Shown here: piece after piece, positions 6,201 through 20,788 of the stretch
Layout of the letters: each line of letters starts with the position of its first letter
How positions within the stretch are numbered: the first letter of the stretch is position 1
Translations under genes and position numbers: made by a program
The notes under the pieces: generated by a model
Databases searched by the model: none
What the model saw: the letters and a program-made list of their open reading frames with translations, nothing else
Told to the model about the DNA's origin: nothing
Origin: an uncultured euryarchaeote
GTDB taxonomy: Archaea; Thermoplasmatota; Poseidoniia; Poseidoniales; Poseidoniaceae
DNA length: 60,677 bases
Assembly (NCBI GenBank): GCA_963991835.1
Contig: CAXDRT010000001.1
Span: 1 to 60,677 of the forward strand
Reading direction: 5' to 3'

Positions 6201-7619
6201 AGTAACAGTGTTACCTACGATTGTAGCAGATGCCATAAAGATATGAATTGCAGGGCATTGGAAATCGCCGCCGTACATCCAAACGGAGTTACAAACTCCT
6301 GTGTTGTTGGCAACGATGTTGTTTGCGATGTATGCACGATTAGGTGAAGGGCTTGGGTAGTTACTTCCGCTATCCTGATAGAGGTATTCACCAATCTTAA
6401 TCGATTCCTTAGCGATATTAGTAATAGTATTGTTCTCGAGTTCTACATCAGAACTTCCAAACACCCAGAAGCCGTTGTAACCAGTGATTGGACCAATCGT
6501 GTTCTGATGAGCACTTACTGTCGAATCACGAATACCAAATCCGGAACCTTGTGCTGCTCCTGTAATCGTATTACCAGTTGCAGAGATAATTGAACCATCA
6601 TAAGCAGTAATTCCAGCACCATCACCAGTTGTGATTTGATTGTTATCGACATAGAGTGTGTGTGAATAATCACCGGTCATCTTGTGAGAATTGGTGTCAA
6701 TACCGTTGCATTTTACGTCAAGTGTTGAATTTCCAAAGGAACCTGATGAACCCCGAAGGAACACACCCTGTGCATTATCCTTGATATCGAGATTATCTAG
6801 TTCAATGAAGGAATCTTCGGAATAGATTAAACTTATTCCATCCTCACAAGAAGCATCAGCATCGCCTGTGAATTCTGAGCCAGTGATGCTGAATTTGGAC
6901 AAGATACCAGCACCTGCGCTGAATGCTTCGACACCAGGACCGTTGTACCCAAGTCCATCAACTCCAAGACTAAAGGTTGAGTCTCTTATCGATGGTGCGG
7001 CTAGATCTATTGCAATCAAGTTTGTCGTATTGATATCAGAAAAGCCGAGATTATCTGCTGTTGCGGATGAACCGTCAAAAATGAGTGCTGCATACTTCAC
7101 AACCTGCAATGAACTTACATAGACTGGTGTACCGTAAGCTTTGTCGAATTGGACGTGAGACAGACCTGTTGATGCTTGGTTGATTGTATTTCGAATCATA
7201 ACACCAGAACCGCATGCAGCATCTGGGTTGTTCAACAAATTATTCCCTTGAACACTGCATCGTCCGACTATAGATGTATCAGCAGGGGCATACCAACTCA
7301 AGCGGACTGGAGAGGAAGCGCTAGCCTGACTGGCACCACAAGAAGCCGAACCTGCACAGATCGCACCCTCGACTTCAATGAAAGCACCCGCTTTGATGTT
7401 AACAGTCGTACCAGCATTGATGACAAGTTTGGCACCTTCCGCTACAATGACGTCACCTGTAACGGTGTGAGTACCGCTCCAAGTCTCTGTTGTGGTGATC
7501 GTTCCGCTAGAAGTCTCGTTTACAGCACTTACCGCTGGTACGGTCATAAGACCCATCAATAACGATGTGAGTAGTAATCCTACTAAACCGACACTTTTTC
7601 CTGTATTTGTGAATCTCAT
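3282..7619 (-). CDS. giant secreted beta-helix (PbH1/NosD-like repeat) surface protein with C-terminal TM anchor
   Basis: 1445 aa. Signal peptide is GLVGLLLTSLLMGLMTVPAVSA. It has many parallel beta-helix type repeats (NNQITTGDGAGITAYDGSIISATGNTITGAAQGSGFGIRDSTVSAHQNTIG; GNTVTGNAGDGIRIKGSIVNVQDNTIE). A Cys-bounded acidic motif CSDGYDNDGDTYVDDADTDC sits at nt 5424-5483. Ig-like modules follow (LNEPLDGSTHTNGKILFTGTASD). The C-terminal TM is LLLIIGLVVAALVLLGAIGFFFI, followed by an acidic/W-rich tail. SD-like GAGGA lies ~8 nt upstream of the ATG. Confidence 0.8.
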   Translation of the reverse strand: MRFTNTGKSVGLVGLLLTSLLMGLMTVPAVSAVNETSSGTITTTETWSGTHTVTGDVIVAEGAKLVINAGTTVNIKAGAFIEVEGAICAGSASCGASQASASSPVRLSWYAPADTSIVGRCSVQGNNLLNNPDAACGSGVMIRNTINQASTGLSHVQFDKAYGTPVYVSSLQVVKYAALIFDGSSATADNLGFSDINTTNLIAIDLAAPSIRDSTFSLGVDGLGYNGPGVEAFSAGAGILSKFSITGSEFTGDADASCEDGISLIYSEDSFIELDNLDIKDNAQGVFLRGSSGSFGNSTLDVKCNGIDTNSHKMTGDYSHTLYVDNNQITTGDGAGITAYDGSIISATGNTITGAAQGSGFGIRDSTVSAHQNTIGPITGYNGFWVFGSSDVELENNTITNIAKESIKIGEYLYQDSGSNYPSPSPNRAYIANNIVANNTGVCNSVWMYGGDFQCPAIHIFMASATIVGNTVTGNAGDGIRIKGSIVNVQDNTIEAGQFAANISHFDNKYGSKFGSIGYFSGNTWTNATQIYNISESRVTVQSEYIPDVQGGYTHPVMLSWQGAECPFVQSECLLLPDTSIMPPRDMPLAIELVNNSTVFSFADLQNFDATKVHVQNQNSAWGSQVREGELVRYQVKAKNSNVAGATVIIKDATGLPMYELTTDEFGFTQQVSLPSDFLLDRNWNHIVGESDVTIPGALDDDGNPIVVTEDTCSDGYDNDGDTYVDDADTDCVNGRELPFYIVEAYKFNKGKKDFNFVLSGPVDDIINLDNLRPGVTIEQYDGDSFAINAVITGSAWDGQLGGQTDYLANQLQFGLVDRVEIQPPGSSDWYYAVDTSGANGELTKENHPFKSWSFEWDLSAHPEGESDVTFRIRSYDGLDYSPIEVRKFKLNLVPPTLYLNEPLDGSTHTNGKILFTGTASDPYSGTWGSDIQDVWFDVTGPNGYSSHFAIDGTVAWAYQWNFDELESGEYHFEVWASDSDYCDDEQDICVVQTRTVIVVNDNIIPIVDLLEPDGTQTVRASTNTTLIGFASDGADGTITRVEIVITDLASGLILNNGPGPVTDFIKTGPGYTWTALWDTSKLDHQGQYEISVKAYDGEDYSVSDVVRITIDKPTDENNIPPQFDRTNWKNTIPIFCVKDSSSENQCGGGASIDLKDFFSDPDGGFDELSIDFVDDPTVSDDNLHPVYVVIDSNGVARYDPATSRTDEEIDKWTLENVRFVVRDTQDSVIYSEGVTFFVQSIEFNAQRMDAGESVTADDPAVFNGTGLPGSRIEARTVSSSTFVKSVVVGDNGIWSMELTLQDMNDASNEIKFEMDGQTFGGTNDPTGFNVAVGAEDDGGNLLLIIGLVVAALVLLGAIGFFFIELEDIEEEAFETENQQVVEEDPYAWGRKDVVETSAPQQPQQVVIQQVQPEAAEASGQHPGWLWDQESNQWVPDPNYQQPSQ

Positions 7620-7799: not shown

Positions 7800-9005
7800 T
7801 CAGCAGTCTATTGTTGATGGAATAGAATCCATCCATGCTTTAGCATCGAGAACACCATATCCTTTGCGTGTATCATGCGTCATGTCGGGTGAAAGTGATG
7901 AGGCCAGAGATGATTTTACAAGTTCAATACAATCGGTTCCAGATTCATTTGTTCGCTTTAATTCAGGATGTTCTTCAAGAATCAATGCAAGAGCTCCTGC
8001 GACAAATACCGTAGCATCGGAGGTCCCACTAGAGGAATACCATTCATCGTTCATTCCAGTTGATACAATAGAAACACCTGGAGCGGTTAATTCTGGTTTC
8101 TGATTGGGGTACTCTCGTAGATTACCGTCTGAATCGACTTGCTCTCCAGCTGAAGATTTTGACCAAACTTCATTGAAGCGATCTGATGCACCAACTGTAA
8201 TAGCTAGATGGACGTTACCAGGAGCACTAACAAAACCATCATCTGATGAACCACCATCATTTCCTGCTGCTGCAACCACGTAGATTCCAAGATCGAGTGC
8301 TTGTCGAGTGGCGGAAACTGTTGCGCCTTCTCGTGAGGCTTCTTGATTTTGTTCACCTCCTAGGGAAAGCGAGATAATATCCGCTTCAAAATCAAAAATA
8401 CACCACCGGATGGCAGAGGCGACTCTTGATTCAGAACCTGTATTCTCGTCACCATCTGCACTTAGAGCAGCTGCCATTCCAAGAGTAATCCCCTGTGCGA
8501 TACCATCTTGATATCCTGAAGAAATGAGGAGACCAGCCATGAGCGTACCGTGCGAAATCGAACCGTAATCAACTGGAGACACTTCACTACCGACAAAGTC
8601 CTTGAACTCAATCGTTGTTCCTGCGAGAGCTGAATGAGTTAGAGAGATACCAGTATCGACCATGCAGAGTCTTACGTCATCACCTGTCAGACCGTCTTGT
8701 TGTAATTCTCGAATGTTAGTATCTTCGAAGGCCCACTCTGATGAAGGTGGAGGTAATTCCAAGATAAGAAGATCCGATTGCCAGAGAATCACGATAAGTG
8801 CCATCACCAAAGCAATGACTGCACCAGAAACAACTGATAACACTCTTCTCGGTCGAATTGATACTGGCTCTGGTATTACGGGCGCCCACCCAGTTACCTC
8901 CGCTCTCCATTGATCTTGGAAACCTCGTGTACTGGGGTCAATCGCGGAAAGAATTCTGGGCTCACCTGGCTCAGGGAGCAACTCTATTCCTTGAAGTTCC
9001 TCCAT
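7800..9005 (-). CDS. membrane-anchored subtilisin-like serine protease (peptidase S8)
   Basis: 401 aa. The catalytic triad contexts are CMVDTGIS (Asp), SISHGTLMAGLL (His) and SSSGTSDATVFVAGALALI (Ser), with the oxyanion Asn in AAAGNDGG. A single N-terminal TM is VLSVVSGAVIALVMALIVILW (signal anchor, N-in). Confidence 0.85.
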   Translation of the reverse strand: MEELQGIELLPEPGEPRILSAIDPSTRGFQDQWRAEVTGWAPVIPEPVSIRPRRVLSVVSGAVIALVMALIVILWQSDLLILELPPPSSEWAFEDTNIRELQQDGLTGDDVRLCMVDTGISLTHSALAGTTIEFKDFVGSEVSPVDYGSISHGTLMAGLLISSGYQDGIAQGITLGMAAALSADGDENTGSESRVASAIRWCIFDFEADIISLSLGGEQNQEASREGATVSATRQALDLGIYVVAAAGNDGGSSDDGFVSAPGNVHLAITVGASDRFNEVWSKSSAGEQVDSDGNLREYPNQKPELTAPGVSIVSTGMNDEWYSSSGTSDATVFVAGALALILEEHPELKRTNESGTDCIELVKSSLASSLSPDMTHDTRKGYGVLDAKAWMDSIPSTIDC

Positions 9006-9059: not shown

Positions 9060-12000
9060 TCAGAATCGAGTACCTGAGCCGCCACGAGTTCGTGCCGCCT
9101 TGATACCGAAGTAAAGAATAATGATGATTAACGCTACAATTGCGACGAGAATCAATGAACTGTCTTCCTCATCCGACCCTTGTACAATGTATTCAATTCC
9201 GAAGTCCTCGTTTGGCAAATCACCAGTTGTAAAGTTTGCATCATCACCACTTACTTCGACTCGAACATCAAATCTCTCAATTCCTTGAGATGCTGCTGAC
9301 AAATTGAAGAGGAAGTCCTGTGAACCAAGAGCTGGAACAGAGAGAGTTTTGTTAAATTCCTGTCCGCTCGAAGGTGTTAGGAAGACGGTTACTTCGCTTG
9401 CTGAACGTAGGCCAGAGTTTTCAATAACAATCACGACATTGTTCGGATCTTTATCGGCGAAGGTATTACTTCTTGATTGAGTCTTATCTTCGTCGAATGA
9501 TAATGAAATTCTTGCGGATTCGATTGTAATTTCAACGTCTTGAGATTCACCATTTTCACTGCTAATTCGAACTGTCATGACTACTTCACCACTTTCGAAT
9601 GCTGTATCTGAGGAAACTGTAAATGCCAAATCTCGCATGTTACCCTTTGCAATGGTTGTAACATCGTTCATCGGACCAACAGTCCATCCTTCAGGAAGGT
9701 TGTCAAGTACTTCGTAGGTGAATGTATCATCACCGTTACCGTTGTTGTTTATCGTTAATCCTGCAGTAGTCACACCACCTGGCGATACACCCACAGTCTC
9801 GGTTACATCCGTAGTGTTGAACCCAAAGTATTGCGGAACTGCAACCTTGAGTGACACTTCAGTCATGTCTCCAGTATCTGCCATGAAGCGGACGTTCAAA
9901 GTGTGTCCATTATCGAGATGCCAAGCATCTTCAACCGACGGAAGATTGATTCTTGCTTGAACTGTTCCGTTCATTGTAGCATTTGCATCAACATCACCAA
10001 TACCGAGTGAGAGGTCAATTGAATCAACCCATGCACTGCCGTTGTAGAATTCAAGACTCCAATCAGCTTGGTCAGGTGAAACAGTCACTGTACCAGTAAC
10101 TGCGAAGGTATCCATAATTTCTGTTCCTTCGTATGTTGCAAGAACATCAAATTCAATGGTTGAGTAGTTCGCATCATCATCGGTCAAAATTGTGGCAGTC
10201 ATCTCTCTGTTTTCGTTTGTAAGGCCTGTAGCGTTTACGACATTGTTGACGCCGAGTGTAAGATCACTGTTGGTCTTTCTGTTGTATGAAAGCATAATTG
10301 AAGTTCGACCTTCATCTCCGTTCTCAATTGAGACTCCTGAACTGTAGTTCATTGTCAAGTCTCTTTGAACTGTTGTGAATTCGGAAGAGAACGAGGCTGA
10401 ACCTGATGGAAGTAAGACTTCAAGCGTACCATCTGAGTTGAGAGGCATGTTCCATACTTGTCCTTCACCAAGGTCGATTTCAACTTCCACAACAGATTGA
10501 ACTGGCGAAGAAGCGTTATCCGTACCTGCGTTGTATGGTTGCAAGTTGAATGCCGTGAATTGAGTATTGAGGTCAATCCAGCCACCCTTGCTCATAACAA
10601 GGTCAACTGTACCACCATCTTGTACTGCTGCATCGAGAATACCAATTGCAATTCCACCGCCGTTAAACGGAGCATCTGCTTCAGATACGACAACAACCCA
10701 TTGCCCTGGCTCGAGGGATTGAGTGAAGGTTAATTCATCTGCTGCATATGTACCTGTGACGTTAATCATTTCTTCTTGGTTTTCCGCAGTTCCGTAAAGA
10801 ACAATACTTGCACCATCAAGACGATCAGAATCGAGGATATCAGTGACACTTCCTGTAACGGATACTTGTGCAGCTGCCATTTCAATATCTTGTGACAGTG
10901 GCTCGCCTCCAACGACGTAGAATCCTGAATTGTTATCATCATAATTGACAACACCAAATCCATCCTTTGCTACAGAAACTGTGTAATTTTCAAGAATTGG
11001 TACATAGAGACTCCAAACACCGTTTTCATTGGTTTGGATGACTGTATCGAGACTTCCTCCTTGAATGGTTACGTTCGCACCTTCAACGCCTTCATTAGCA
11101 TCTCCTATGTCATCTTCGTTAACATCCCAGAATGCTTTCCCACCAATTTCGACTTCAAGATCGGCATAGACCATTCCTAGGCTTGTGTTTTCAGTAAGCG
11201 ATTGAGGGGAACTCGAAGTGTCGAGTGACCATACACGTTGTGCAGCAGTCTCGTTCATGAAGAGACTCCATGTACCAGGCATCAGCATTTGTGTAGCATT
11301 ACCATCAGCATCGGTTGGATTCATTGTAATGTTACCGAATCCGTCATGACTTACCAAGACAATTTCCTTTCCAATCAATGTTTGATTGGTACCAGATTCC
11401 ATGAGCGTGAGTGAGACCTCAACGGTTTCAATCATGCTCATATTGAGGTCGATTCGCTGCGAAGCATCAGAATCAACTGTGATTGGCATTCGCAATGATT
11501 CCATGATACCATCAGCGTTTAGCATAGGTGCTACGACAACAACATAGTCGCCTGTAGGGACATATTCAGCGAAGGTTCCGTTTGCATCAACATTCAATGG
11601 AACATATCCTGTTCCGTCAGCGGATGCAAGGAGAATGTTCTCGACCATTGCAGAGCCATTCATCCATGAAATAGTACCTGTAACTCTCCATTCATCAACG
11701 ATTGGAACAACGATGGCCTCTTCAGGTCCATTAAGTCCAATAGCGATAACATCGAGAACTCCATTGAATTCTAAGCTTGCATCCGATGCATTTTCATCAG
11801 CAGCATCGAGGTGATTGGTTTGAATTGCATAGATACCAGGACTTAGAACCGCTTCAACAATACCGTCTTCTGAATAATCAGAGGAGGTTAAGTTAACTTG
11901 CTCACCAATCTGTGATACTGGGATCAATTGAATATCTGGACGAATCGCAGTACCGTTCTCAAACACACTGTCGCCAAGGTCAGTGAAGACGTTGAGAACG

Positions 12001-15000
12001 ACTGTACTGTTGGCTGGATTGGTAATCAAATCAACTGGTTCTGGGTTCATTCCATCAGCGACAGTTACTGAATAATCAGTCACTATTCCTGCATTGTATG
12101 CTGCTTCAGGGATGCTGAAAGACCAAGTTCCATTCAACAATTGAATTTGGAACACACCAGAAGCGTCTGCAAGAGTCTTCCAGACAACACCGTCTTCAGA
12201 AGTCGCATAAATTTCTACAGGTTCGAATTCAGGGATATCTTGATTCCATGGGGTTTCATTATTGAAAAGGTATACATTTCCAATGACCTCAACCGTTGGT
12301 TTTAGGATCATTACGTCAAGTGGAGCCATGTCTTCAACAACTGTCACAAGACCGCCAGCAGAGAATGTAGAGACTGAACTCTCAGCGTTAATGTTGAACG
12401 TCAATCCTGATGGAAGTCGTTGACTGAATTCTCCAAATTGGTCAGTCACAGCAGTAAACTCAAGATTGTTTCCATGGAAACGGACAGGGACGGAACTTGC
12501 ATTCTCATACAATTTCTGTTCTTCTGGGAAAGCAAACCATTCCTCGTACGTCAATCCGGCTGTGTTTGGAGCATTGATTGAACCATTGACCCATACTGAA
12601 GTAGAGTATGTCAGGTCAAGAGTAACGTCTGCATCGACAACAGAGAATTCTTCGATTAGAATGTAATCTTCATCTGAATTATCGCTAATTTCCCATTCTC
12701 CAATAGGTAATTCGATCACAACGACTCCATTCTCGTCAGATACCATATCGAGTGGTAGTAATCCAAGAGGATCGGTCAAGTTGACAGTTCGATTAGATAC
12801 ATCGAATCCAGCAGGACCGTTGAGTGTTATTGTAACGTCATACATCTGAGGAACGCCAAGGTCGAATGTGATGTTCATTGGGTCGTCAAACACTTGAATC
12901 GTTTGATTCATTTCGTAGAAGCCATCTTCATCAAGGTCAACTCTCAGATAGTAGAATCCAGAAGTGATTGGACCATACGATACATTTCCATCTTCACCAG
13001 AAGTCAGGGAAATCAGAGATTCCTCGCCAAGTTCAACATCAATTAATTGAAGTTCTTGATTCGCAAGAACATCTCCATCCATGGTCAACAGGGTGTCTGA
13101 TATCTGTGATGCAGGTAATGTCATTGCAAGATCATATGTTGGTTCAAGACCGACAGTAACCGGATCAGGCAATAGGATTTCTCTGCCATTTGGCATAACT
13201 GCAATCATATTGTATATTCCTGGCAAAATCCCAGTCATGTAGAATGAACCAGGACTTACGAGATCTCCACTAAAGAATCCAGGTCCTATGAAGAGACCAG
13301 TTCCGTTGAGTGTACCAATACCATCGAATGATCCTGTTCCTTCAAATGTCTCACCCACAAGTTCCTTCTTGAGGCTGCTGACACCTTGCGATGTCAATCG
13401 TCCATTCGCCTCAACCTCTCCATCGAGGAGGTATGTTGAGAATTCTGTACCAGTTGAAAGAAGACATAAGGAGGCATTAGCAGGCATGGTTTCATTCTCA
13501 CCACAAGGCAGTGATGCATTGTCATGAGATAACCATGATGCTTCAAGCGTACCTATTCCAACCCATGTTCCGTTTCCTGAGTACACACGATTGTCACCAA
13601 TTTCACGAGTAAAGTTACCTGTGAAGTTGTAAGCAAGTGCAACACCATCGCTTGTGAAGCTACCAACATCGGAGAAGGTTACTTCCCCAGTTCCTTGGAG
13701 AACTCGTGATTCTTCGCTATCGAAGGAACCATTCGTTGTAGTCAATGTGTAGTTCTCTGTCATGGACCAAATGTTCCTTAGAATGAAATCTGTTTCAACA
13801 AGAGGCTCTCCAGCGAACTCACCGAAGCCAGACCAGTCTACAGTACCGGATACACCGCTACCTTCGACTTCGATGTTCATCTCTTCAGTAACATCCTCCA
13901 AACGATCAGCTTGTGCTCCAGTGACGTTGAGTGTGGATTCTCCTAGCCAAGTCATGTTTGCAACTTGACCGAGAATAGCGGTAATTGCATAGACATCACG
14001 TTCAGTGTTAACATCTGTCAACAAGTCGCCCAGACCACTTTGGTATTCACCGGTTTGAACTGTTTGAATCGCTTCAGTATCATCAAATATGCCCGCAAAA
14101 GCACTCACTCTAATTCGACCAGCAGGTGCAATAAAGCTCCAATCTCCGTTTTCATCAGTATCTGTGAATCCAATCGGGATCCAATACGTATCATCGTCAC
14201 CGTCAATTATATCCTCTCCAGAGAATGCATCTCTTTCGATTAGAATTCGAGTATTTGGCAAACCAATTTCTTCGTTCTCCATGTACACAGTTCCTTCTAT
14301 TTCAGCACCTGAATAGTACTTCATTATTTTAACATCAGCATTTGCATAAATATCGACACCTGTTCGTGCTTGATTCAACGTGATTGATGATTCGTTAGGA
14401 CTGTACCAGTTTGCAATAACAAAGTGATTCATCATTGCACCTGGAAGAGGGTATGCTTGTTGGAGGAAATTCGTCCCTACGTCATTGTGTAGAAGTTGTT
14501 GCTTCGGCTGTGGATTTGTAGACCCAGCATCGGCACCAAGAGTTGATGCTCCGTAACCAACATAGGAACGGGCAAGCATTGTGTCAAAGAATTCTGGTAG
14601 ATGGTCTACTCTGATATCGTCCACTTGAAGTGGATCAATGTCGGCACCAGACTGTTGGTCAAGTACATCCTTGAGCATTGCAGCATCAACTTCCTCTCGG
14701 GACAATTCACGAATTGGTTCGTCACCACGAACAGTTTCGTATACTTCGCTTGTGAATGTGTTGAAATCTTGTCCTGAAAGAATTGTAGGTGCGCCAAAGA
14801 TACCGAGAGGTCGACCACCATTGTAGCCAGCATCAGAATTGTATCGACCAGCACGTGGATACAGTTTATCGTCCACAGCAAAATATCGAATTTCGTGGTT
14901 ACGTGTGATTGTTTCACCAGGAGCGCCTTCGTAATCTTGTACTTCGTATCCATCCATCTTGATGATGGCGGTGTAGAGGTCAATGATTTGTTCTTCAGAT

Positions 15001-18000
15001 AATCCGTTTGTCAGGAGTTGAACTGTCATAGCAATGTGAGAGTTTGCACGGTGAAGACCTGTGGAAACGGAGGTGTACTCTTCGACTAAGTCAGAGGTGT
15101 ACCAGTATTCTCCAAAGGTATAGTGAGTGATCGAGTTAACAATCTCTTTGCTTACATCTGCATTGTTCGTGAATGTAGTGTTCGCAATTGTTTCATTTTC
15201 GAAGTCACCGTTGTAACAGTAGTCGCTAAAGGTGCTGTCACAAGGAATAATTTCGCCACCAGACCAAACACGGTAGTGAGGCTTTAGGTTTGTATCAGGA
15301 ATTCCGTTTGAGTCCAGAGGGAATCCTCGCGCCATGTATGTATCACCCTTGCTCTTGTAGACTTCATATGAGTGGTCAGCAACAACATCTGCCATTTGGT
15401 CCATATCCTTTCCAGATTGGGTCATGATAAGGTTGAGTTCATCGATTTGAGATTCGTTCAAGAATTCATCCAATATCAGTTCGAATCCAGGAGTAAAGGT
15501 TCGTTCTCCATCTCCGTGATTAATATTGTAGGCAAGATCTCCGCCAGCAAGGTGTTGAATAAACATAGCAACCAAATCGGTTTGGCTTCGTGCAAGAAGC
15601 ATGTTACCTGATGCTGGAATACCACTTTGGAAGTTATCGGAAACAGATGGGTGTTCTCCTGAATTCAAGGCTTGGAAACCATAATCCCACCAAGAGACAA
15701 AGGCAGGTTTATCTGAGAATTTCATACCGCAAGTACTCGAATTCGCATGCCAATTCCCGTCTAATTCACTGCATGAAGCTTCGTCAGAAACACCCATATG
15801 TGCTTGATCTTGTTCAGATAACCAATCGAATGCATCGTTCCAGTGAAGGCCGTTAAATCCACTTCCGAAGGAACCCAAGTAAGAGCGGCCACCGAAGGCT
15901 TCGTAGTCACGGCTATCAAGAAGAGATACACCAAGGTCATCCCAACGCAGGATATCAGGTATTGTGTAGTAGAAATCTTCGTCAAGGTCTCCCTCTGCAG
16001 GGGAGTTACTCGGTATAGCAGAATCCAATCCATAGGTCAATTGTTGACCTGTTAGCATAATCAGTACAAGAAGAACGGCAGAGAACGTAGGTGTTCTCCA
16101 AACTGCTTTTCTTGCCCCAGCAATACGGTCAGAAGGAGTTCGTATTCCAGCTCGTTTCCAAGTTCGAACAAGTCCATCCCAATTCGCCCACTTCCATAAT
16201 CCTGCAATTCCCGCTGCACCCATGATGGCGACAACAGGAGTTGCGTTGAAGAGGAAACGTGCAGCAGTCCATGACATGTAAGAAGCTGCAAAGATCCATA
16301 TTCCAAACACAAGTGAAATCTGACTTCGTTGGCTGAATGTCTTCCATAGACAAATGAGTCCAACAACCAATGCAAGTACGAATACAACAGGTCCGAAACT
16401 TGCAAACATGTATCCACGGTCAGGAGCATTTGCTTCTGCAACTGTTCCAAAAATCTTGGTCTTTGTGAAGTATCCACTTCCTGTGAAGAGAACATCCCAA
16501 GCGTTGCTTACGTCTGTGAGTTTCAAGACGTAAAGAATTGCAAAGAAGATGGTTGCACCTGTAGCAAGAGTACCTAGAACGAGAAGCCATGGCTTGTCTC
16601 TAAATCCAGTTGTGATGTACATGATGACAATTGTGAAGAACAGAATGTACAGGAATGGTTGCAATCCTGTGCCATCTAGAACCAAGTTCATTTGCGGATG
16701 AGCATAGAACGGTAGAGCCATCAGAAGATTCGTGAATAGCATAGTCAGGAAGAGTGTGCTGATTATTGTCGAATCTCTTCTGCGGAACATATTCAATGCA
16801 ACTTGTGCGGCATAAGCAAGGAAGAGAATTGAAGGTCCTACGACGAATCCTTTCCATCCAAGGCTGGCTGCTCCGAATGCAACACCTGCCAAAACTGCGT
16901 TTGACATGGCATACTTTCGCTGTTGAGCAACTGCACCCATTGCACGAATCATATCGAGAGGATGAATCGAAGTGGTTCGAACAAGTCTCTCAGAACCTGC
17001 ATATTTGACTGCTCTAAGATAGAACATAAATCCAATCGCAATAAAGAGCATTACGAACGAATCGTGGTCCGCCAATCCCCAAGTGGAGTGGGTTACGTGA
17101 GCAGGCATGAATGCAATTAACCAAGCTGCAATAACTCCGGTTAATTTTCCAAAGTGATCTTTCGCAATCGTTGCTACTGGAAGAATTGTAAGAGCACCGT
17201 AAACAGCAGGAAGAGCGAGCATACTCCACCATACAGCATTGGTTTCACCAACGAATGGTTGGAGAGCCATGGCACCAAGTGCTAGGCTCCACGAGAACAA
17301 CGGTGGTCGAGGATTGATTCCACCAATTGGATAAAATCGATCTGCGTCATAGACAAGGTGAGCGTTCTGTGCAAGAATATAATCGACAACACGCTTCATG
17401 TACCAAGGGTCAGAACCACCAGTCATATCGAAACTTTCAGTTCCTTGTGCGTACATTGAAGGTACGGCATACCATTGTATTCGAATCACAAGTCCAACAA
17501 TGAATGCTACTGCAGTAAGCAAAGAAGCCCAGTGTGCATTCCAGAATTCACGTGCTCCGCTAGGGCGATGCTCTTCTCGATTCGACCATCCACCATACTT
17601 GTCATGGTTACCAATTATCGAGATTGCCACGCCGATAAAGAACGTGATTGCAAGCCAAATTAGAGGAGACCAAGAGTCGTTGAAACTCTCATTTGTCCAG
17701 AACCCTGATTCATACCAGGAACCAACAAGATACAACATCCATAGAGAGGAGATTGTCATTGCACGAGTAAGCCAACGTTCTGCAACCATACCAGAAACGA
17801 TGATGGCTACAATACCTGTGAGAAGTGCTGGCCAGTATCCCGCATATCCGTTTGCTTCAACACCGCCAAGACCGCCAAGTTTGAGTCTGTCTGCGATAGA
17901 AACTTGGTCGAAATGCCAGATTGTGAGTAGGTGAGCAGCAGCCCAAATAACGAGTGCAATTTGAAGAGGAAGTGCATTTCTATTCCATGCACCTTCCTTG

Positions 18001-18644
18001 ACTGTTCCATAAGCAAACCACCCTTTATCGTTGGCAGGGCTCAATAATCCACGTCCTGCAACACCGATTGCAAGTCCAAGGATCGGGAATATTGTCAACC
18101 ATGTAAAGAAGACAAATCCAAGAGCTGTTTTTTGGAATGTGCCAACAGGATAGGCTTGCGTCGCATTCGGGAAGAGATATTCGCTTGGGAGATATTCCGT
18201 TACTCCAACTGCAGCAGTAATGTCCATTGCCGAATGTACACCGACACCTGCGAAGGTGAGCATCGTCATCCATTCATGTCGGCCTCGTGTATCGAGTAAA
18301 TACCCACCAAATGTCACGATAAAGAAGGTGAAACCTGTGAACGAATCGATGTTGCGCTCGACAAGTCCTGAACCAACAAGAGAAATGACAAACATAGCGA
18401 GGGAGATTCTTGTTTCTGTCATTGAATCTGGAAGGTTACCTAGTTCACGAAGTACACGTGGTGTTACAGCAAGTAATCCTGCTACACCAGTGGCGATGAT
18501 TGGCATCATCGCATCTTTGTTCAATTCAACGTCGATCGACATAAGTCCGTCGACGTAGTTTGCTAGTATTGCAATAAGCACTGCAAGTGGGGCGATGAGC
18601 CAACCAAAAACAGGCCTTTGCGAGGTCTTTGATACCTTTTCCAT
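9060..18644 (-). CDS. aglB: giant archaeal oligosaccharyltransferase AglB/STT3 fused to N-terminal polytopic module and C-terminal beta-sandwich repeat ectodomain
   Basis: 3194 aa. The STT3 motifs are present: EL1 GGSDPWYMKR (aa ~410-418), DxD-type WGLADHDSF, TIxE-type GTVAEAN, and WWDYG (FVSWWDYGFQ, aa 985-989). WWDYG is read as ccataatcccacca at nt 15679-15692. A possible DK motif AVDDKLYP lies at nt ~14853-14882. The C-terminal half holds CarboxypepD_reg/Ig-like repeats, NEW3/CARDB-like modules (LTINNNGNGDDTFTYEVLDNLPEGWTVG) and a terminal TM (LILVAIVALIIIILYFGI). SD-like GAGGG lies 7-11 nt upstream of the ATG. Confidence 0.85.
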   Translation of the reverse strand: MEKVSKTSQRPVFGWLIAPLAVLIAILANYVDGLMSIDVELNKDAMMPIIATGVAGLLAVTPRVLRELGNLPDSMTETRISLAMFVISLVGSGLVERNIDSFTGFTFFIVTFGGYLLDTRGRHEWMTMLTFAGVGVHSAMDITAAVGVTEYLPSEYLFPNATQAYPVGTFQKTALGFVFFTWLTIFPILGLAIGVAGRGLLSPANDKGWFAYGTVKEGAWNRNALPLQIALVIWAAAHLLTIWHFDQVSIADRLKLGGLGGVEANGYAGYWPALLTGIVAIIVSGMVAERWLTRAMTISSLWMLYLVGSWYESGFWTNESFNDSWSPLIWLAITFFIGVAISIIGNHDKYGGWSNREEHRPSGAREFWNAHWASLLTAVAFIVGLVIRIQWYAVPSMYAQGTESFDMTGGSDPWYMKRVVDYILAQNAHLVYDADRFYPIGGINPRPPLFSWSLALGAMALQPFVGETNAVWWSMLALPAVYGALTILPVATIAKDHFGKLTGVIAAWLIAFMPAHVTHSTWGLADHDSFVMLFIAIGFMFYLRAVKYAGSERLVRTTSIHPLDMIRAMGAVAQQRKYAMSNAVLAGVAFGAASLGWKGFVVGPSILFLAYAAQVALNMFRRRDSTIISTLFLTMLFTNLLMALPFYAHPQMNLVLDGTGLQPFLYILFFTIVIMYITTGFRDKPWLLVLGTLATGATIFFAILYVLKLTDVSNAWDVLFTGSGYFTKTKIFGTVAEANAPDRGYMFASFGPVVFVLALVVGLICLWKTFSQRSQISLVFGIWIFAASYMSWTAARFLFNATPVVAIMGAAGIAGLWKWANWDGLVRTWKRAGIRTPSDRIAGARKAVWRTPTFSAVLLVLIMLTGQQLTYGLDSAIPSNSPAEGDLDEDFYYTIPDILRWDDLGVSLLDSRDYEAFGGRSYLGSFGSGFNGLHWNDAFDWLSEQDQAHMGVSDEASCSELDGNWHANSSTCGMKFSDKPAFVSWWDYGFQALNSGEHPSVSDNFQSGIPASGNMLLARSQTDLVAMFIQHLAGGDLAYNINHGDGERTFTPGFELILDEFLNESQIDELNLIMTQSGKDMDQMADVVADHSYEVYKSKGDTYMARGFPLDSNGIPDTNLKPHYRVWSGGEIIPCDSTFSDYCYNGDFENETIANTTFTNNADVSKEIVNSITHYTFGEYWYTSDLVEEYTSVSTGLHRANSHIAMTVQLLTNGLSEEQIIDLYTAIIKMDGYEVQDYEGAPGETITRNHEIRYFAVDDKLYPRAGRYNSDAGYNGGRPLGIFGAPTILSGQDFNTFTSEVYETVRGDEPIRELSREEVDAAMLKDVLDQQSGADIDPLQVDDIRVDHLPEFFDTMLARSYVGYGASTLGADAGSTNPQPKQQLLHNDVGTNFLQQAYPLPGAMMNHFVIANWYSPNESSITLNQARTGVDIYANADVKIMKYYSGAEIEGTVYMENEEIGLPNTRILIERDAFSGEDIIDGDDDTYWIPIGFTDTDENGDWSFIAPAGRIRVSAFAGIFDDTEAIQTVQTGEYQSGLGDLLTDVNTERDVYAITAILGQVANMTWLGESTLNVTGAQADRLEDVTEEMNIEVEGSGVSGTVDWSGFGEFAGEPLVETDFILRNIWSMTENYTLTTTNGSFDSEESRVLQGTGEVTFSDVGSFTSDGVALAYNFTGNFTREIGDNRVYSGNGTWVGIGTLEASWLSHDNASLPCGENETMPANASLCLLSTGTEFSTYLLDGEVEANGRLTSQGVSSLKKELVGETFEGTGSFDGIGTLNGTGLFIGPGFFSGDLVSPGSFYMTGILPGIYNMIAVMPNGREILLPDPVTVGLEPTYDLAMTLPASQISDTLLTMDGDVLANQELQLIDVELGEESLISLTSGEDGNVSYGPITSGFYYLRVDLDEDGFYEMNQTIQVFDDPMNITFDLGVPQMYDVTITLNGPAGFDVSNRTVNLTDPLGLLPLDMVSDENGVVVIELPIGEWEISDNSDEDYILIEEFSVVDADVTLDLTYSTSVWVNGSINAPNTAGLTYEEWFAFPEEQKLYENASSVPVRFHGNNLEFTAVTDQFGEFSQRLPSGLTFNINAESSVSTFSAGGLVTVVEDMAPLDVMILKPTVEVIGNVYLFNNETPWNQDIPEFEPVEIYATSEDGVVWKTLADASGVFQIQLLNGTWSFSIPEAAYNAGIVTDYSVTVADGMNPEPVDLITNPANSTVVLNVFTDLGDSVFENGTAIRPDIQLIPVSQIGEQVNLTSSDYSEDGIVEAVLSPGIYAIQTNHLDAADENASDASLEFNGVLDVIAIGLNGPEEAIVVPIVDEWRVTGTISWMNGSAMVENILLASADGTGYVPLNVDANGTFAEYVPTGDYVVVVAPMLNADGIMESLRMPITVDSDASQRIDLNMSMIETVEVSLTLMESGTNQTLIGKEIVLVSHDGFGNITMNPTDADGNATQMLMPGTWSLFMNETAAQRVWSLDTSSSPQSLTENTSLGMVYADLEVEIGGKAFWDVNEDDIGDANEGVEGANVTIQGGSLDTVIQTNENGVWSLYVPILENYTVSVAKDGFGVVNYDDNNSGFYVVGGEPLSQDIEMAAAQVSVTGSVTDILDSDRLDGASIVLYGTAENQEEMINVTGTYAADELTFTQSLEPGQWVVVVSEADAPFNGGGIAIGILDAAVQDGGTVDLVMSKGGWIDLNTQFTAFNLQPYNAGTDNASSPVQSVVEVEIDLGEGQVWNMPLNSDGTLEVLLPSGSASFSSEFTTVQRDLTMNYSSGVSIENGDEGRTSIMLSYNRKTNSDLTLGVNNVVNATGLTNENREMTATILTDDDANYSTIEFDVLATYEGTEIMDTFAVTGTVTVSPDQADWSLEFYNGSAWVDSIDLSLGIGDVDANATMNGTVQARINLPSVEDAWHLDNGHTLNVRFMADTGDMTEVSLKVAVPQYFGFNTTDVTETVGVSPGGVTTAGLTINNNGNGDDTFTYEVLDNLPEGWTVGPMNDVTTIAKGNMRDLAFTVSSDTAFESGEVVMTVRISSENGESQDVEITIESARISLSFDEDKTQSRSNTFADKDPNNVVIVIENSGLRSASEVTVFLTPSSGQEFNKTLSVPALGSQDFLFNLSAASQGIERFDVRVEVSGDDANFTTGDLPNEDFGIEYIVQGSDEEDSSLILVAIVALIIIILYFGIKAARTRGGSGTRF

Positions 18645-20098: not shown

Positions 20099-20788
20099 AT
20101 GTGCTTTATTGAAATCCAATCTTTCATGAGCAACGTTGATGCAGCCACTGAACTCGGTTTTCTTTCACTTGTCTTGATGACTCTCTGGCTTTATCTTCCA
20201 GGATTTATTGCAAATACCTTTGCGATGATGTGGGGTAAATGGCTTCCAAAAACAGGTTATGGCCCGTGGCCAATCGATGGTGGAAGGTCTCTAAAAGATG
20301 GCAATCGGATGCTTGGTGATGGAAAAACCTGGAACGGACTTATTGGTGGATCGCTCACTGCTGGTTTGCTATGCGTGCTTCAATTAGCCATCGTTGGAAC
20401 AGAATTCGATGGAGCCGCCATATTTGCAAGTCCAATTATTGGTTCAGAAGATGCTTGGTTTTCAATTGGAAACGATTGGGTTACGGCCTATATCTTGGGA
20501 TCATTTCTCGGCTTTGCTTGCTTATTTGGTGATTTGACAGGTTCATTTTTCAAGCGTCGTCAAGGCTTGAAACGAGAAGGGGATGTTTCTTCCAAAGCAC
20601 CACTACTCGACACATTACCGTTCGCAATCATGGTCTTCCTTTGGGGTCAACTCTTTTTGGGAGGTTCGCTCCTAGCCTCAAGTGAACTCATCTATCCAAT
20701 GCTCGCAATAATTGTCATCACACCAGTACTTCATCGTGGATTTAACCTGATAGGATACGCCATTGGATGGAAAGATGTTCCTTACTGA
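20099..20788 (+). CDS. carS: CDP-archaeol synthase (CDP-2,3-bis-O-geranylgeranyl-sn-glycerol synthase)
   Basis: The motifs PIDGGRSLKDGNRMLGDGKTWNGLIGG, FGDLTGSFFKRRQG and ITPVLHRGFNLIGYAIGWKDVPY match the conserved CarS (DUF46) blocks. The true start is probably the internal ATG at ~20126 (MSNVDAATEL). Confidence 0.85.
   Translation: MCFIEIQSFMSNVDAATELGFLSLVLMTLWLYLPGFIANTFAMMWGKWLPKTGYGPWPIDGGRSLKDGNRMLGDGKTWNGLIGGSLTAGLLCVLQLAIVGTEFDGAAIFASPIIGSEDAWFSIGNDWVTAYILGSFLGFACLFGDLTGSFFKRRQGLKREGDVSSKAPLLDTLPFAIMVFLWGQLFLGGSLLASSELIYPMLAIIVITPVLHRGFNLIGYAIGWKDVPY

What the first reader, a model, noticed from the sequence alone, without database searches (positions are those of the whole stretch)
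9060..18644. 3,194-aa AglB: an oligosaccharyltransferase embedded in a giant surface protein
Seen: one uninterrupted ORF contains all STT3/AglB catalytic signatures (SDPWY EL1 motif, ADHD, TVAE, WWDYG at 15679-15693, possible DDK). On both sides there is large extra sequence, and the ORF ends in a second TM anchor (nt ~9063-9160). Established: characterised AglB/STT3/PglB catalytic subunits are roughly 500-1000 aa, with 13 TM segments plus one C-terminal globular domain. Inference: the OST is physically built into a cell-surface scaffold, so N-glycosylation and envelope architecture would be coupled in one polypeptide. Being anchored at both ends would hold the ~1,750-aa ectodomain as a loop or arch over the membrane. 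I am not aware of a characterised OST with this layout.
Basis: partly seen in the sequence, partly recalled or inferred. Interest (0 to 1): 0.8.

Follow-up and report, generated by a model that had tools for sequence, protein, structure and literature searches.

The report
Giant oligosaccharyltransferase with built-in surface stalk
The 3,194-residue gene is real: it fuses the archaeal N-glycosylation enzyme AglB to ten extra membrane helices and a roughly 2,300-residue extracellular region rich in glycosylation sites, mostly a chain of Ig-like domains, that is tied back into the membrane, and this giant form is standard in marine group II archaea and widespread in their phylum yet apparently never studied.

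Summary
ORF 9060-18644(-) encodes 3,194 aa with an intact STT3/AglB core (aa 366-876 plus a globular WWDYG domain). D412, D526-H527-D528, E737 and WWDYG are invariant across 57 homologues. It is not a chimera: 80 Poseidoniales species genomes carry the same gene, and 55 of 57 ORFs not cut by a contig end are 3,160-3,238 aa.

The layout is not unique to this window. Homologues of 2,000-2,800 aa occur across Thermoplasmatota, including Aciduliprofundum and Methanomassiliicoccales. Those lack the 10-helix N-terminal module, which is specific to marine group II (MGII).

The C-terminal roughly 1,700 aa form a collinear chain of about 15 diverged β-sandwich domains resembling NOMO, BaTIE and pilin domains. 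The chain is acidic, carries 47 sequons against 19.5 expected (16 kept in ≥90% of orthologues), and ends in a conserved TM helix. In 27 of 183 non-MGII relatives that end looks like a PGF-CTERM signal.

A membrane-anchored S8 subtilase follows the gene in 59 of 59 MGII loci. I found no paper describing this architecture, although one dataset already labels a 9.5-kb orthologue aglB and shows it transcribed.

Most likely this is an active OST that also serves as a glycosylated, doubly tethered envelope stalk. Cleavage into two proteins is not excluded.

The parts
9060..18644 (-). Whole gene: giant AglB, 3,194 aa (stop codon at 9060-9062)
   Evidence: More than 120 orthologue clusters of 3,150-3,230 aa cover it at 100%. 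55 of 57 untruncated ORFs in species genomes are 3,160-3,238 aa.
17550..18644 (-). N-terminal module, aa 1-365: 10 predicted TM helices with the N-terminus in the cytoplasm. Specific to MGII; no known family.
   Evidence: Hydropathy of the alignment. AF2 helices at 14-31, 43-67, 77-98, 101-119, 123-148, 168-197, 222-247, 270-287, 293-312 and 326-346. No Pfam hit, no PDB hit, no similarity to the STT3 core. Absent from the 2,000-2,800-aa relatives.
16017..17549 (-). STT3/AglB GT-C membrane domain, aa 366-876, 13 TM helices
   Evidence: Pfam STT3 at E 2.8e-12. TIGR04154 matches aa 378-1021. Profile against AfAglB-L 3waj gives E 6e-26. Foldseek top hits are 7e9s, 3wak and 5gmy, then human and yeast STT3 and PglB.
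17400..17414 (-). EL1 motif SDPWY; D412 is the first catalytic Asp
   Evidence: Aligns with GGNDPWY of AfAglB-L. D412 is invariant in 57 sequences.
17061..17072 (-). ADHD: second acidic/His metal-binding motif (D526, H527, D528)
   Evidence: Aligns with NDHH of AfAglB-L. Invariant.
16434..16445 (-). TVAE: the TIXE-type motif of EL5 (E737)
   Evidence: T734 and E737 are invariant. Aligns with TIAE of AfAglB-L.
15678..15692 (-). WWDYG motif, aa 985-989
   Evidence: Invariant. Aligns with WWDYG of 3vu0, 3vgp and 3waj.
14340..16016 (-). Extracytoplasmic α/β globular domain of AglB, aa 877-1435, with an MGII insertion at about aa 1100-1209
   Evidence: AF2 model B shows mixed α/β with pLDDT mostly 70-90. 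BLASTP against P0141 shows collinear blocks 355-1103 and 1209-1515.
14085..14339 (-). First CarboxypepD_reg-like β-sandwich, aa 1436-1520. Probably equivalent to the terminal β-sandwich of AglB-L.
   Evidence: AF2 β-sandwich. Conserved in all giants. Weak match to AfAglB-L residues 735-826 (domain 3, not significant on its own).
9159..14084 (-). Chain of about 15 diverged β-sandwich (Ig-like / CarboxypepD_reg / NOMO-like / CARDB-like) domains, aa 1521-3162. Acidic and rich in sequons.
   Evidence: Pfam CarboxypepD_reg and SpaA. Foldseek finds BaTIE 6fwv at E 2e-11, SdrD, pilins, SlaB and NOMO 9c7u_B. The family profile matches human NOMO2 at E 1e-22. 47 sequons against 19.5 expected; D+E 16%, K+R 3%.
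13257..13769 (-). aa 1626-1796: conserved G/T/S-rich insertion with 6 invariant sequons and 2 invariant Cys; fold unknown
   Evidence: Column identity 0.74-0.80. Invariant sequons at 1631, 1691, 1717, 1723 and others. AF2 pLDDT 23-40.
9537..9872 (-). choice-of-anchor-T-like pre-anchor domain, aa 2925-3036
   Evidence: NCBIfam NF041740 at E 3.9e-9, 36 bits, below the cutoff of 70.
9102..9158 (-). C-terminal TM helix, aa 3163-3181
   Evidence: Kyte-Doolittle mean of 3.11. Present in all 141 MGII giants and in 97 of 111 other giants examined.
9063..9101 (-). Basic cytoplasmic tail KAARTRGGSGTRF, with an invariant C-terminal Phe
   Evidence: 141 of 141 end in F.
7800..9005 (-). Linked gene: S8 subtilase with an N-terminal signal-anchor TM (aa 55-75) and an extracellular catalytic domain
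   Evidence: Pfam Peptidase_S8 at E 4.5e-32. Sequence. Weak similarity to mycosin. Lies directly downstream on the same strand in 59 of 59 Poseidoniales loci.

Best explanation
This is the Poseidoniales (marine group II) version of AglB, the archaeal oligosaccharyltransferase. It is very probably catalytically active and probably the cell's only one. It belongs to a large, undescribed class of giant AglBs that is widespread in Thermoplasmatota.

**Topology (inferred from hydropathy, the positive-inside rule and the AF2 models).** The N-terminus is cytoplasmic. Ten MGII-specific TM helices come first, followed by the 13-TM STT3 fold, which ends outside the cell. Next is the normal α/β WWDYG domain with its terminal β-sandwich (to about aa 1520). 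A further roughly 1,640 aa form a rod-like, non-repetitive chain of Ig-like β-sandwich domains of the NOMO / BaTIE / pilin-stalk type. One C-terminal TM helix returns a short basic tail to the cytoplasm.

**Proposed function (inferred).** The membrane part transfers dolichol-linked glycans to Asn-X-Ser/Thr of exported proteins, as in any AglB. The ectodomain chain is itself heavily N-glycosylated, most simply by its own or a neighbouring active site. It stays attached, so the enzyme doubles as a glycosylated stalk or arch of fixed length, tethered at both ends, that contributes to or spaces the cell envelope.

**Shown:** gene integrity, conservation, the catalytic motifs, the fold classes, sequon enrichment and conservation, the conserved anchor, and transcription of an orthologue.

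**Inferred:** enzymatic activity, actual glycosylation, that the protein remains in one piece, and the structural role.
For: **Gene integrity**
- More than 120 orthologue clusters at 48-95% identity cover the protein at 100%.
- 80 species genomes carry it. 55 of 57 untruncated ORFs are 3,160-3,238 aa. The two exceptions are one frameshift and one run of N.

**OST identity**
- Pfam STT3 scores above its gathering threshold.
- The family profile matches AfAglB-L at E 6e-26.
- Foldseek's best 19 hits are all AglB, STT3 or PglB.
- D412, D526/H527/D528, E737 and WWDYG are invariant over 57 sequences spanning MGII and other Thermoplasmatota.

**Surface-stalk nature of the extension**
- The AF2 model shows β-sandwiches.
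- Foldseek finds BaTIE, SdrD B domains, pilins, adhesin extenders, SlaB and NOMO.
- The family profile matches human NOMO2 at E 1e-22 and BaTIE at 3e-13.
- NOMO is a rod of Ig-like domains about 27 nm long, with a C-terminal TM, whose length sets membrane spacing (PMC8327139).

**Glycosylation target**
- The chain has 47 sequons against 19.5 expected. The TM core has 1 against 1.4.
- 16 of the 47 are kept in ≥90% of 59 orthologues. Sequon Asn is conserved more often than other Asn (34% against 17%, p = 0.046).

**Fixed architecture**
- Length varies by only about 1% at 50% identity. There is no domain gain or loss.
- The chain evolves at 42-50% identity where PurD shows 61% and the TM core 69%.

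**Anchor**
- The C-terminal TM is present in 141 of 141 MGII giants and 97 of 111 others.
- The other big surface proteins in the window are also held by a single C-terminal TM.

**Expression and copy number**
- An orthologue (9.5 kb, between purD and an S8 protease) is transcribed in coastal metatranscriptomes.
- It is the only gene annotated aglB, COG1287 or significant GT66 among the 1,251 genes of that MAG.
Against: - There is no protein-level evidence that the polypeptide stays intact. A membrane-anchored extracellular subtilase is encoded 54 nt downstream in every MGII locus.
- The DK/MI motif of the Ser/Thr pocket could not be located.
- The AF2 models are of moderate quality (mean pLDDT 64 and 68). 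They say nothing about the overall shape of the chain.
- An OST is normally a low-abundance enzyme, which fits poorly with a bulk structural role.
- The envelope of MGII has never been imaged, to my knowledge.
- A second, divergent AglB elsewhere in the genome was excluded only for one annotated MAG.
Confidence: 0.55

Rival explanations
1. Precursor model. The giant protein is a polyprotein. After export and cis-glycosylation, the co-encoded membrane-anchored S8 subtilase (or another protease) cuts between the AglB globular domain and the β-sandwich chain. That would yield a normal-sized OST and a separate, C-terminally anchored surface glycoprotein. The fusion would serve only to couple synthesis and glycosylation of a major envelope protein.
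For: - An S8 subtilase lies on the same strand directly downstream in 59 of 59 Poseidoniales loci, and also in a published MGIIb MAG.
- Its topology puts the catalytic domain outside, next to the membrane. It resembles mycosin-type processing proteases weakly.
- 27 of 183 non-MGII giants end in PGF-CTERM-like signals, which are typical of S-layer and surface glycoproteins.
- A variable, low-confidence loop at aa 1535-1546 follows the last canonical AglB domain.
Against: - S8 adjacency is not conserved outside MGII. Only 1 of 5 loci has an S8 gene nearby, and that one is on the opposite strand. Yet the fusion is conserved there.
- If the parts worked separately, gene fission should appear somewhere. 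The short relatives examined were mostly fragments of giants, or had no full-length cluster member to judge by.
- The S8 gene could equally serve the 1,445-aa β-helix protein that follows it.
Confidence: 0.2
2. Accessory-module model. The extra parts are functional equivalents of the non-catalytic subunits of the eukaryotic OST or translocon-associated proteins, fused into one chain. The 10-TM module and the C-terminal TM would pack against STT3. The β-sandwich chain would capture, hold or chaperone nascent exported substrates, or bind glycans, and so improve glycosylation efficiency rather than build the envelope.
For: - Total TM count is 24 (10 + 13 + 1).
- The ectodomain is β-sandwich-rich and ends in a single TM, as in ribophorin I, OST48 and NOMO (from established knowledge of the structures 6ezn and 6s7o).
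- The family-level sequence match to NOMO2, a translocon-associated protein, has E 1e-22.
- The region aa 1200-1900 next to the catalytic domain is about as conserved as the TM core (column identity 0.71-0.80 against 0.79-0.85).
- In Methanomassiliicoccales-like genomes a thioredoxin with a weak OST3_OST6 hit lies two genes downstream.
Against: - The N-terminal module profile finds none of the OST accessory chains present in the PDB. None of them is among the top 50 Foldseek hits.
- CarboxypepD_reg-type chains are generic stalk modules of surface proteins, so the match to NOMO is not specific.
- About 15 domains is far more than is needed to reach a substrate at the membrane surface.
Confidence: 0.15
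3. Dead-enzyme anchor. The STT3 domain has lost activity and merely anchors an adhesin-like surface protein.
For: - The protein scores far below the TIGR04154 cutoff (163 against 450 bits).
- The DK/MI motif was not identified.
Against: - All metal-binding and catalytic residues and WWDYG are invariant over a phylum-wide set.
- The TM core is the slowest-evolving part.
- It is the only AglB annotated in a published MGII MAG.
Confidence: 0.03
4. Artefact: an assembly chimera, or two or more genes fused by a sequencing error.
For: None found.
Against: Hundreds of independent assemblies, on contigs up to 618 kb and from several pipelines, give the same collinear ORF with the same neighbours.
Confidence: 0.01

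Closest known systems
AglB-L of Archaeoglobus fulgidus (PDB 3WAJ/3WAK/5GMY/7E9S, 875-residue chain) and other characterised AglB, STT3 and PglB catalytic subunits
   Same: - GT-C fold with 13 TM helices.
- EL1 Asp, the D-H-D/H motif, TIXE and WWDYG all align.
- It is the best structural match.
- An extracytoplasmic α/β domain follows, and then probably the same terminal β-sandwich (weak).
   Different: - 3.7 times longer. Characterised chains in the PDB are 640-935 residues.
- Ten extra N-terminal TM helices.
- About 1,640 extra residues of β-sandwich chain.
- A second membrane anchor.
- No recognisable DK/MI motif.
Uncharacterised giant AglB homologues of other Thermoplasmatota, for example Aciduliprofundum sp. 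MAR08-339 'putative membrane protein, required for N-linked glycosylation' (2,081 aa, P0445) and MAG proteins from Methanomassiliicoccales and Thermoplasmata (2,000-2,800 aa)
   Same: - Same core and same invariant residues.
- Collinear proximal ectodomain (aa 1209-1515 aligns with P0141 723-994).
- β-sandwich chain and C-terminal anchor.
   Different: - They lack the 10-TM N-terminal module.
- They are about 400-1,100 aa shorter and fall into several length classes.
- Some end in PGF-CTERM-like signals.
- They have no conserved S8 neighbour.
NOMO (BOS complex subunit, PDB 9C7V/9C7U) and Bacillus anthracis TIE (6FWV): rods of CarboxypepD_reg-type Ig domains
   Same: - A chain of about 12 or more prealbumin-like β-sandwiches ending in one TM (NOMO).
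- Profile-level sequence similarity for the family (E 1e-22 and 3e-13).
- Structural similarity for the window protein's own model.
- NOMO acts as a length-defined spacer (PMC8327139).
   Different: - NOMO and TIE are stand-alone proteins with signal peptides, not fused to an enzyme.
- The MGII-only profile does not reach NOMO at E ≤ 1.
- The direction of any evolutionary relationship is unknown.
Eukaryotic multi-subunit OST (STT3 plus ribophorins/Ost1, OST48/Wbp1, Swp1, Ost3/6 and others)
   Same: A catalytic STT3 surrounded by additional TM helices and by lumenal β-rich domains held by single TM anchors.
   Different: - In eukaryotes these are separate polypeptides.
- No sequence similarity was found between the extra parts here and any OST accessory chain.
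- This is an analogy only.
C-terminally anchored archaeal surface glycoproteins (PGF-CTERM/ArtA substrates such as the Haloferax S-layer glycoprotein; the SlaB stalk of Sulfolobus)
   Same: - Large, acidic, heavily N-glycosylated ectodomain with a C-terminal TM or lipid anchor.
- SlaB is among the Foldseek hits.
- Relatives carry PGF-CTERM-like ends.
   Different: - Those proteins have a cleaved signal peptide at the N-terminus. Here a 23-TM enzyme takes that place.
- The MGII proteins have no PGF motif (0 of 141).

Membership tests
STT3/AglB/PglB oligosaccharyltransferases (CAZy GT66, Pfam PF02516) | Match to the STT3 membrane-domain model above the curated threshold | tested here: met
   PF02516 matches aa 383-806 at 47.3 bits against a gathering score of 24.5. 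The profile matches AfAglB-L at E 6e-26.
STT3/AglB/PglB oligosaccharyltransferases (CAZy GT66, Pfam PF02516) | GT-C fold with 13 TM helices followed by an extracytoplasmic domain | tested here: met
   In the AF2 model the TM core has pLDDT 70-95. The Foldseek top 19 hits are all AglB, STT3 or PglB at probability 1.00.
STT3/AglB/PglB oligosaccharyltransferases (CAZy GT66, Pfam PF02516) | Acidic catalytic and metal-binding residues: the EL1 Asp, the second DxD/DxH-type motif, and the TIXE/SVSE Glu in EL5 | tested here: met
   D412, D526-H527-D528 and E737 align with the AfAglB-L motifs. They are invariant in 57 sequences.
STT3/AglB/PglB oligosaccharyltransferases (CAZy GT66, Pfam PF02516) | WWDxG motif in the extracytoplasmic domain | tested here: met
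   WWDYG at aa 985-989. Invariant. Aligned with 3vu0, 3vgp and 3waj.
STT3/AglB/PglB oligosaccharyltransferases (CAZy GT66, Pfam PF02516) | DK or MI motif forming the Ser/Thr pocket | tested here: inconclusive
No DxxK or MxxI could be placed by alignment. It lies 270 residues after WWDYG and is not of the DxxK form.
STT3/AglB/PglB oligosaccharyltransferases (CAZy GT66, Pfam PF02516) | Glycan transfer from a dolichol-linked donor to Asn-X-Ser/Thr | not testable with these tools
   This needs a biochemical or genetic assay.
NCBIfam TIGR04154 (archaeo_STT3, archaeosortase A system-associated subfamily) | Score above the curated cutoff | tested here: not met
   163 bits against a cutoff of 450. It is related to this subfamily but is not a member of it.
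PGF-CTERM / archaeosortase A substrates | A PGF tripeptide immediately before a C-terminal TM helix and a basic tail | tested here: not met
   The window protein ends ...SSLILVAIVALIIIILYFGIKAARTRGGSGTRF. 0 of 141 MGII orthologues have PG[FMYL] in the last 45 residues, against 27 of 183 non-MGII giants.
NOMO / CarboxypepD_reg-type Ig-domain rods | Tandem prealbumin-like β-sandwich domains recognised by the family models | tested here: met
   - PF13620 scores 51.4 bits against 32.3, with a second copy.
- Foldseek finds BaTIE at E 2e-11 and NOMO 9c7u_B at E 1.5e-5.
- The family profile matches NOMO2 at E 1e-22.
- The recurrent D-x-x-G...G-x-[YW] signature appears about every 85-110 aa between aa 1883 and 2737 (read directly).
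NOMO / CarboxypepD_reg-type Ig-domain rods | Orthology to eukaryotic NOMO (stand-alone type I protein, partner of NCLN and TMEM147) | tested here: not met
   - The chain is fused to AglB.
- The MGII-only profile does not reach NOMO.
- No nicalin-like (NCLN) or TMEM147-like gene was seen in the window.
Eukaryotic-type OST accessory subunits | Sequence similarity of the extra TM module to Ost1/2/3/4/5, Swp1 or Wbp1 chains | tested here: not met
   The profile of aa 1-368 against all PDB chains finds nothing relevant at E ≤ 10. Pfam finds nothing.

The most novel reading that the evidence does not exclude
In marine group II archaea, and perhaps in many S-layer-less Thermoplasmatota, the oligosaccharyltransferase is itself a principal structural glycoprotein of the cell envelope. 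Arrays of self-glycosylating NOMO-like arches of fixed length, tethered at both ends, would set the thickness of a glycocalyx or pseudo-periplasm. The enzyme that makes the sugar coat would then also be its scaffold. A corollary is that pairing an STT3 enzyme with a NOMO-type Ig rod and extra TM helices, which eukaryotes achieve with separate ER proteins at the translocon, has a single-chain archaeal precedent.
Probability: 0.15. Interest if true: 0.85.

Novelty: new variant of a known kind. Interest (0 to 1): 0.6.

Why it matters
AglB, STT3 and PglB have been studied as enzymes of about 600-1,000 residues. Here an entire archaeal phylum, including some of the most abundant planktonic archaea in the surface ocean, carries a version two to four times larger, under strong constraint on length and domain order.

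If the protein stays intact, N-glycosylation and envelope construction are physically joined in one molecule. The envelope of uncultured MGII could then be approached through a single conserved gene.

If it is cleaved, it is a new way of coupling a major glycoprotein to its glycosylating enzyme.

Either way it offers a natural single-chain comparison for the multi-subunit eukaryotic OST. It also shows that NOMO-type rods occur fused to an OST. The question is testable in cultivated relatives such as Aciduliprofundum and Methanomassiliicoccales.

Tried and rejected
- **Single-sequence PDB search.** phmmer of aa 1-1400 against the PDB found nothing. Profiles were needed.
- **Internal repeats.** BLASTP of the extension against itself and hhalign of four single domains against the whole chain found none. 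A regular expression for the domain signature was too crude, so I read the signature by eye.
- **N-terminal module as a partial duplication of STT3.** hhalign gives probability 0.3%. Rejected.
- **N-terminal module against known families.** Pfam finds nothing. The only PDB hit is a chance match to a phage coat helix.
- **S8 protease as a universal partner.** It is conserved only within MGII and not in five other Thermoplasmatota loci.
- **Short relatives as evidence of gene fission.** Most of the ten checked were fragments of giants (partial records, or clustered with 2,100-2,200-aa members). The rest had no full-length cluster member to judge by.
- **Oversized alignment.** The 57-sequence alignment was too large for structure prediction, so a 29-sequence one was used.
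- **Literature.** Searches combining AglB, STT3 or oligosaccharyltransferase with Marine Group II, Poseidoniales, Thermoplasmata, Thermoplasma, Methanomassiliicoccales, PGF-CTERM or 'giant protein' found no description of the architecture. Nikolayev et al. 2020 is not held.
- **Glycosylation genes in the window.** No agl glycosyltransferase cluster or archaeosortase was found.


Full report
**1. The observation.** The window holds an uninterrupted minus-strand ORF, 9060-18644, of 3,194 codons starting with ATG.
- Pfam STT3 matches aa 383-806 above its gathering score. NCBIfam TIGR04154 (archaeal STT3) matches aa 378-1021, far below its cutoff.
- The window is archaeal: CDP-archaeol synthase is at 20099-20788. 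The closest genomes are Candidatus Poseidoniales / Poseidoniaceae, that is, marine group II (MGII).

**2. Not an artefact.**
- A search of 5.8 billion proteins returned more than 120 clusters at 48-95% identity. Nearly all are 3,150-3,230 aa with 99-100% coverage. They come from ENA, JGI, NCBI, TARA and Logan assemblies, on contigs up to 618 kb.
- In one-genome-per-species GTDB contigs, at least 570 stretches encode a relative. The best 80 are 80 different Poseidoniales assemblies.
- Of 57 ORFs not cut by a contig end, 55 are 3,160-3,238 aa. The other two are one frameshift and one run of N, and both are still collinear to the last residue.

**3. Anatomy.** Alignment-averaged hydropathy and the AF2 model of aa 1-1200 agree on the layout.
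- Ten TM helices lie in aa 1-346.
- A conserved basic linker spans aa 347-370.
- The STT3 helices run from about aa 363 to 876.
- An even number of extra helices keeps the STT3 N-terminus inside and EL1 (with D412) outside, as the fold requires.
- After TM13 the chain is extracytoplasmic until a very hydrophobic helix at aa 3163-3181, followed by KAARTRGGSGTRF.
- The total is 24 TM helices and an ectodomain of about 2,290 aa.

**4. The catalytic core.**
- A profile of MGII plus other Thermoplasmatota homologues hits A. fulgidus AglB-L at E 6e-26. GGsDPyY aligns with GGNDPWY, laDHD with NDHH, TiAEA with TIAEV, and WWDYG with WWDYG.
- The AF2 model's best structural matches are AfAglB-L (E 2e-15), then human STT3A/B, yeast Stt3 and PglB.
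- Across 57 sequences that are only 27-33% identical between the two groups, D412, D526, H527, D528, E737 and W985-G989 are invariant.
- The TM core is the slowest-evolving part of the protein. It shows 69% identity where PurD shows 61% in the same genome pair.
- I conclude this is a bona fide, very probably active AglB. It falls outside the curated TIGR04154 subfamily.

**5. The C-terminal 2,300 residues.** The AF2 model of aa 930-2100 has mean pLDDT 68. It shows:
- a mixed α/β domain to about aa 1410, which is the usual AglB globular domain, with an MGII insertion near aa 1100-1209;
- a β-sandwich at aa 1439-1519;
- further β-sandwiches after that.

The first β-sandwich aligns weakly with the last domain of AfAglB-L. 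The canonical AglB-L equivalent therefore probably ends near aa 1520, and about 1,640 residues before the anchor are truly additional.

Evidence on what those additional residues are:
- Pfam sees CarboxypepD_reg and SpaA-type domains. NCBIfam sees a choice-of-anchor-T-like domain before the anchor.
- Foldseek places the chain next to B. anthracis TIE, SdrD B domains, Gram-positive pilins, adhesin extender regions, Sulfolobus SlaB and human NOMO.
- The family profile matches human NOMO2 at E 1e-22. NOMO is a 'beads on a string' rod of about 27 nm with a C-terminal TM, and its length sets ER membrane spacing (PMC8327139).
- A D-x-x-G...G-x-[YW] signature recurs every 85-110 aa from aa 1883 to 2737 (read directly). 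This indicates about ten consecutive domains there and roughly 15 in all.
- The domains share no detectable similarity with each other. Each is conserved in place across orthologues, and length varies by only about 1%.

**6. Signs that the chain is glycosylated.**
- The chain carries 47 N-X-S/T sequons against 19.5 expected from its composition. The TM core has 1 against 1.4.
- 16 of the 47 are kept in ≥90% of 59 orthologues that share about 50% identity. About 20 were invariant in a 16-sequence set.
- Sequon Asn is conserved twice as often as other Asn (p = 0.046, weak).
- The chain is very acidic: D+E 16%, K+R 3%.
- The non-MGII giants have a median of 2.0 sequons per 100 aa in their chains.

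**7. The second anchor.**
- All 141 MGII giants retrieved end in a TM helix plus a short basic tail, and all end in Phe.
- Among non-MGII giants, 97 of 111 examined have a C-terminal TM. Of the 183 non-MGII giants scanned for the motif, 27 have a PG[FMYL] motif just before that position, the form of a PGF-CTERM archaeosortase signal.
- By established knowledge of ArtA substrates, such a signal would be cleaved and replaced by a lipid anchor. The end of the protein is thus a 'choice of anchor' position, and tethering of the distal end is the conserved feature.
- The other large surface proteins of this window (β-helix, fasciclin, LTD/PLD and CARDB-like) are also held by a single C-terminal TM, but with long Trp-rich cytoplasmic tails.

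**8. The N-terminal module.** It is conserved within MGII (42-45% identity between distant species, with many invariant Trp, Gly and Pro). It has no match in Pfam or the PDB and no similarity to the STT3 core. The 2,000-2,800-aa relatives start at the equivalent of aa 365-380, so the module is an MGII addition of unknown function.

**9. Context.**
- PurD lies upstream in 65 of 65 Poseidoniales loci. An S8 subtilase lies directly downstream on the same strand in 59 of 59. The 1,445-aa β-helix protein and the STAND/TPR gene follow, as in the window.
- The subtilase has a cytoplasmic N-terminus, one TM (aa 55-75) and an external catalytic domain.
- Outside MGII the S8 link is absent. In Methanomassiliicoccales-like genomes a CARDB protein and a thioredoxin follow instead.

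**10. Distribution and prior knowledge.**
- An exhaustive HMMER scan with aa 1-1200 found 793 relatives. After the MGII set, almost all of the best 150 are 2,000-2,800 aa.
- Named members come from Thermoplasmata, Methanomassiliicoccales, Thermoplasmatales and Thermoplasmatota MAGs, including complete genomes, and from Aciduliprofundum sp. MAR08-339.
- The shorter hits that I checked were mostly fragments of giants.
- I found no paper that describes this architecture.
- One paper's supplementary table lists a 9.5-kb 'aglB' between purD and an S8 'halolysin' in an MGIIb MAG. It reports the gene enriched in metatranscriptomes (log2 fold change 2.05, adjusted p = 0.062). It is the only gene annotated aglB, COG1287 or significant GT66 among the 1,251 genes of that MAG (PMC9723583). 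The size is not commented on in the passages I read.

**11. How it most likely works.**
- Shown: an intact, conserved, transcribed gene whose product has an AglB core with all catalytic residues, a surface-stalk-type chain rich in conserved sequons, and a conserved distal anchor.
- Inferred: the enzyme glycosylates exported proteins, including its own chain. The chain remains attached and acts as a glycosylated stalk or arch of fixed length in the envelope (confidence 0.55).
- Rivals: cleavage into an OST plus a surface glycoprotein, possibly by the linked subtilase (0.2); an accessory, substrate-handling role analogous to eukaryotic OST subunits (0.15); a dead enzyme (0.03); an artefact (0.01).

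**12. Verdict.** The main correction concerns scope. This is not an oddity of one contig but the standard AglB of MGII and, minus the N-terminal module, of much of Thermoplasmatota. It is a new variant of a known kind, of moderate to high interest. It is surprising to a glycobiologist, widespread, ecologically prominent and testable, but its function beyond catalysis is not yet established.

Noticed in passing
window 7800-9005 (-): A type II membrane-anchored S8 subtilase (TM at aa 55-75, catalytic domain outside, weakly mycosin-like) lies 54 nt downstream of the giant AglB. It is in that position in 59 of 59 Poseidoniales loci, but not in other Thermoplasmatota.
   Followed up: partly
window 9063-9101 (-), and 141 orthologues: The short cytoplasmic tail of the giant AglB ends in Phe in all 141 MGII homologues (mostly -SRF, -TRF or -TKF). 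An invariant C-terminal residue suggests a recognition motif.
   Followed up: no
window 3282-7619 (-), 20831-22612 (+), 24729-28478 (-), 35702-40633 (+): Four other large surface proteins (β-helix/Big_7, CARDB-like, 8x fasciclin, 5x lamin-tail plus 2x PLD) share one layout: a signal peptide, one C-terminal TM, and a 60-110-aa acidic or Q-rich cytoplasmic tail ending in a Trp-rich motif (for example GWLWDQESNQW, QQWTDDNGH...WWNGTDW, QTWTDADGN). This looks like a common cytoplasmic docking or sorting tail.
   Followed up: no
window 13257-13769 (-), aa 1626-1796 of the giant protein: A G/T/S-rich stretch of about 130-170 aa with six invariant sequons and two invariant Cys is as conserved as the catalytic core, yet AF2 cannot model it (pLDDT 23-40). 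It appears to be inserted into the second CarboxypepD_reg-like domain.
   Followed up: partly
L085 12519-13771, L087 12570-13789, L003 17263-18195: In Methanomassiliicoccales-like genomes the giant AglB is followed by a 256-310-aa CARDB protein. In L085 and L087 its start overlaps the AglB stop, and a thioredoxin comes next, with a weak OST3_OST6 (PF04756) hit in L085. In L003 a small gap precedes the CARDB gene. PurD is nearby in L085 and L087 too, so the PurD-AglB linkage is old.
   Followed up: no
non-MGII homologues, for example P0156, P0300-P0303, P0306: 27 of 183 giant AglBs outside MGII end in PGF-CTERM-like signals (PGF/PGY plus TM plus an Arg-rich tail). That implies a polytopic enzyme whose far end would be processed and lipid-anchored by archaeosortase A.
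   Followed up: partly
window 752-3274 (-): An 840-aa protein with an HTH, a STAND-type AAA ATPase and TPR repeats is conserved in the same block (PurD-AglB-S8-β-helix-STAND) in a 50%-identity relative (L001). It is a possible regulator of the surface-protein cluster.
   Followed up: no
non-MGII homologues: Giant AglB lengths fall into discrete classes (about 2,080, 2,150-2,190, 2,350, 2,450-2,500, 2,740-2,820 and 3,160-3,240 aa). This is as expected if whole β-sandwich domains were added or lost between lineages and then frozen within each one.
   Followed up: no
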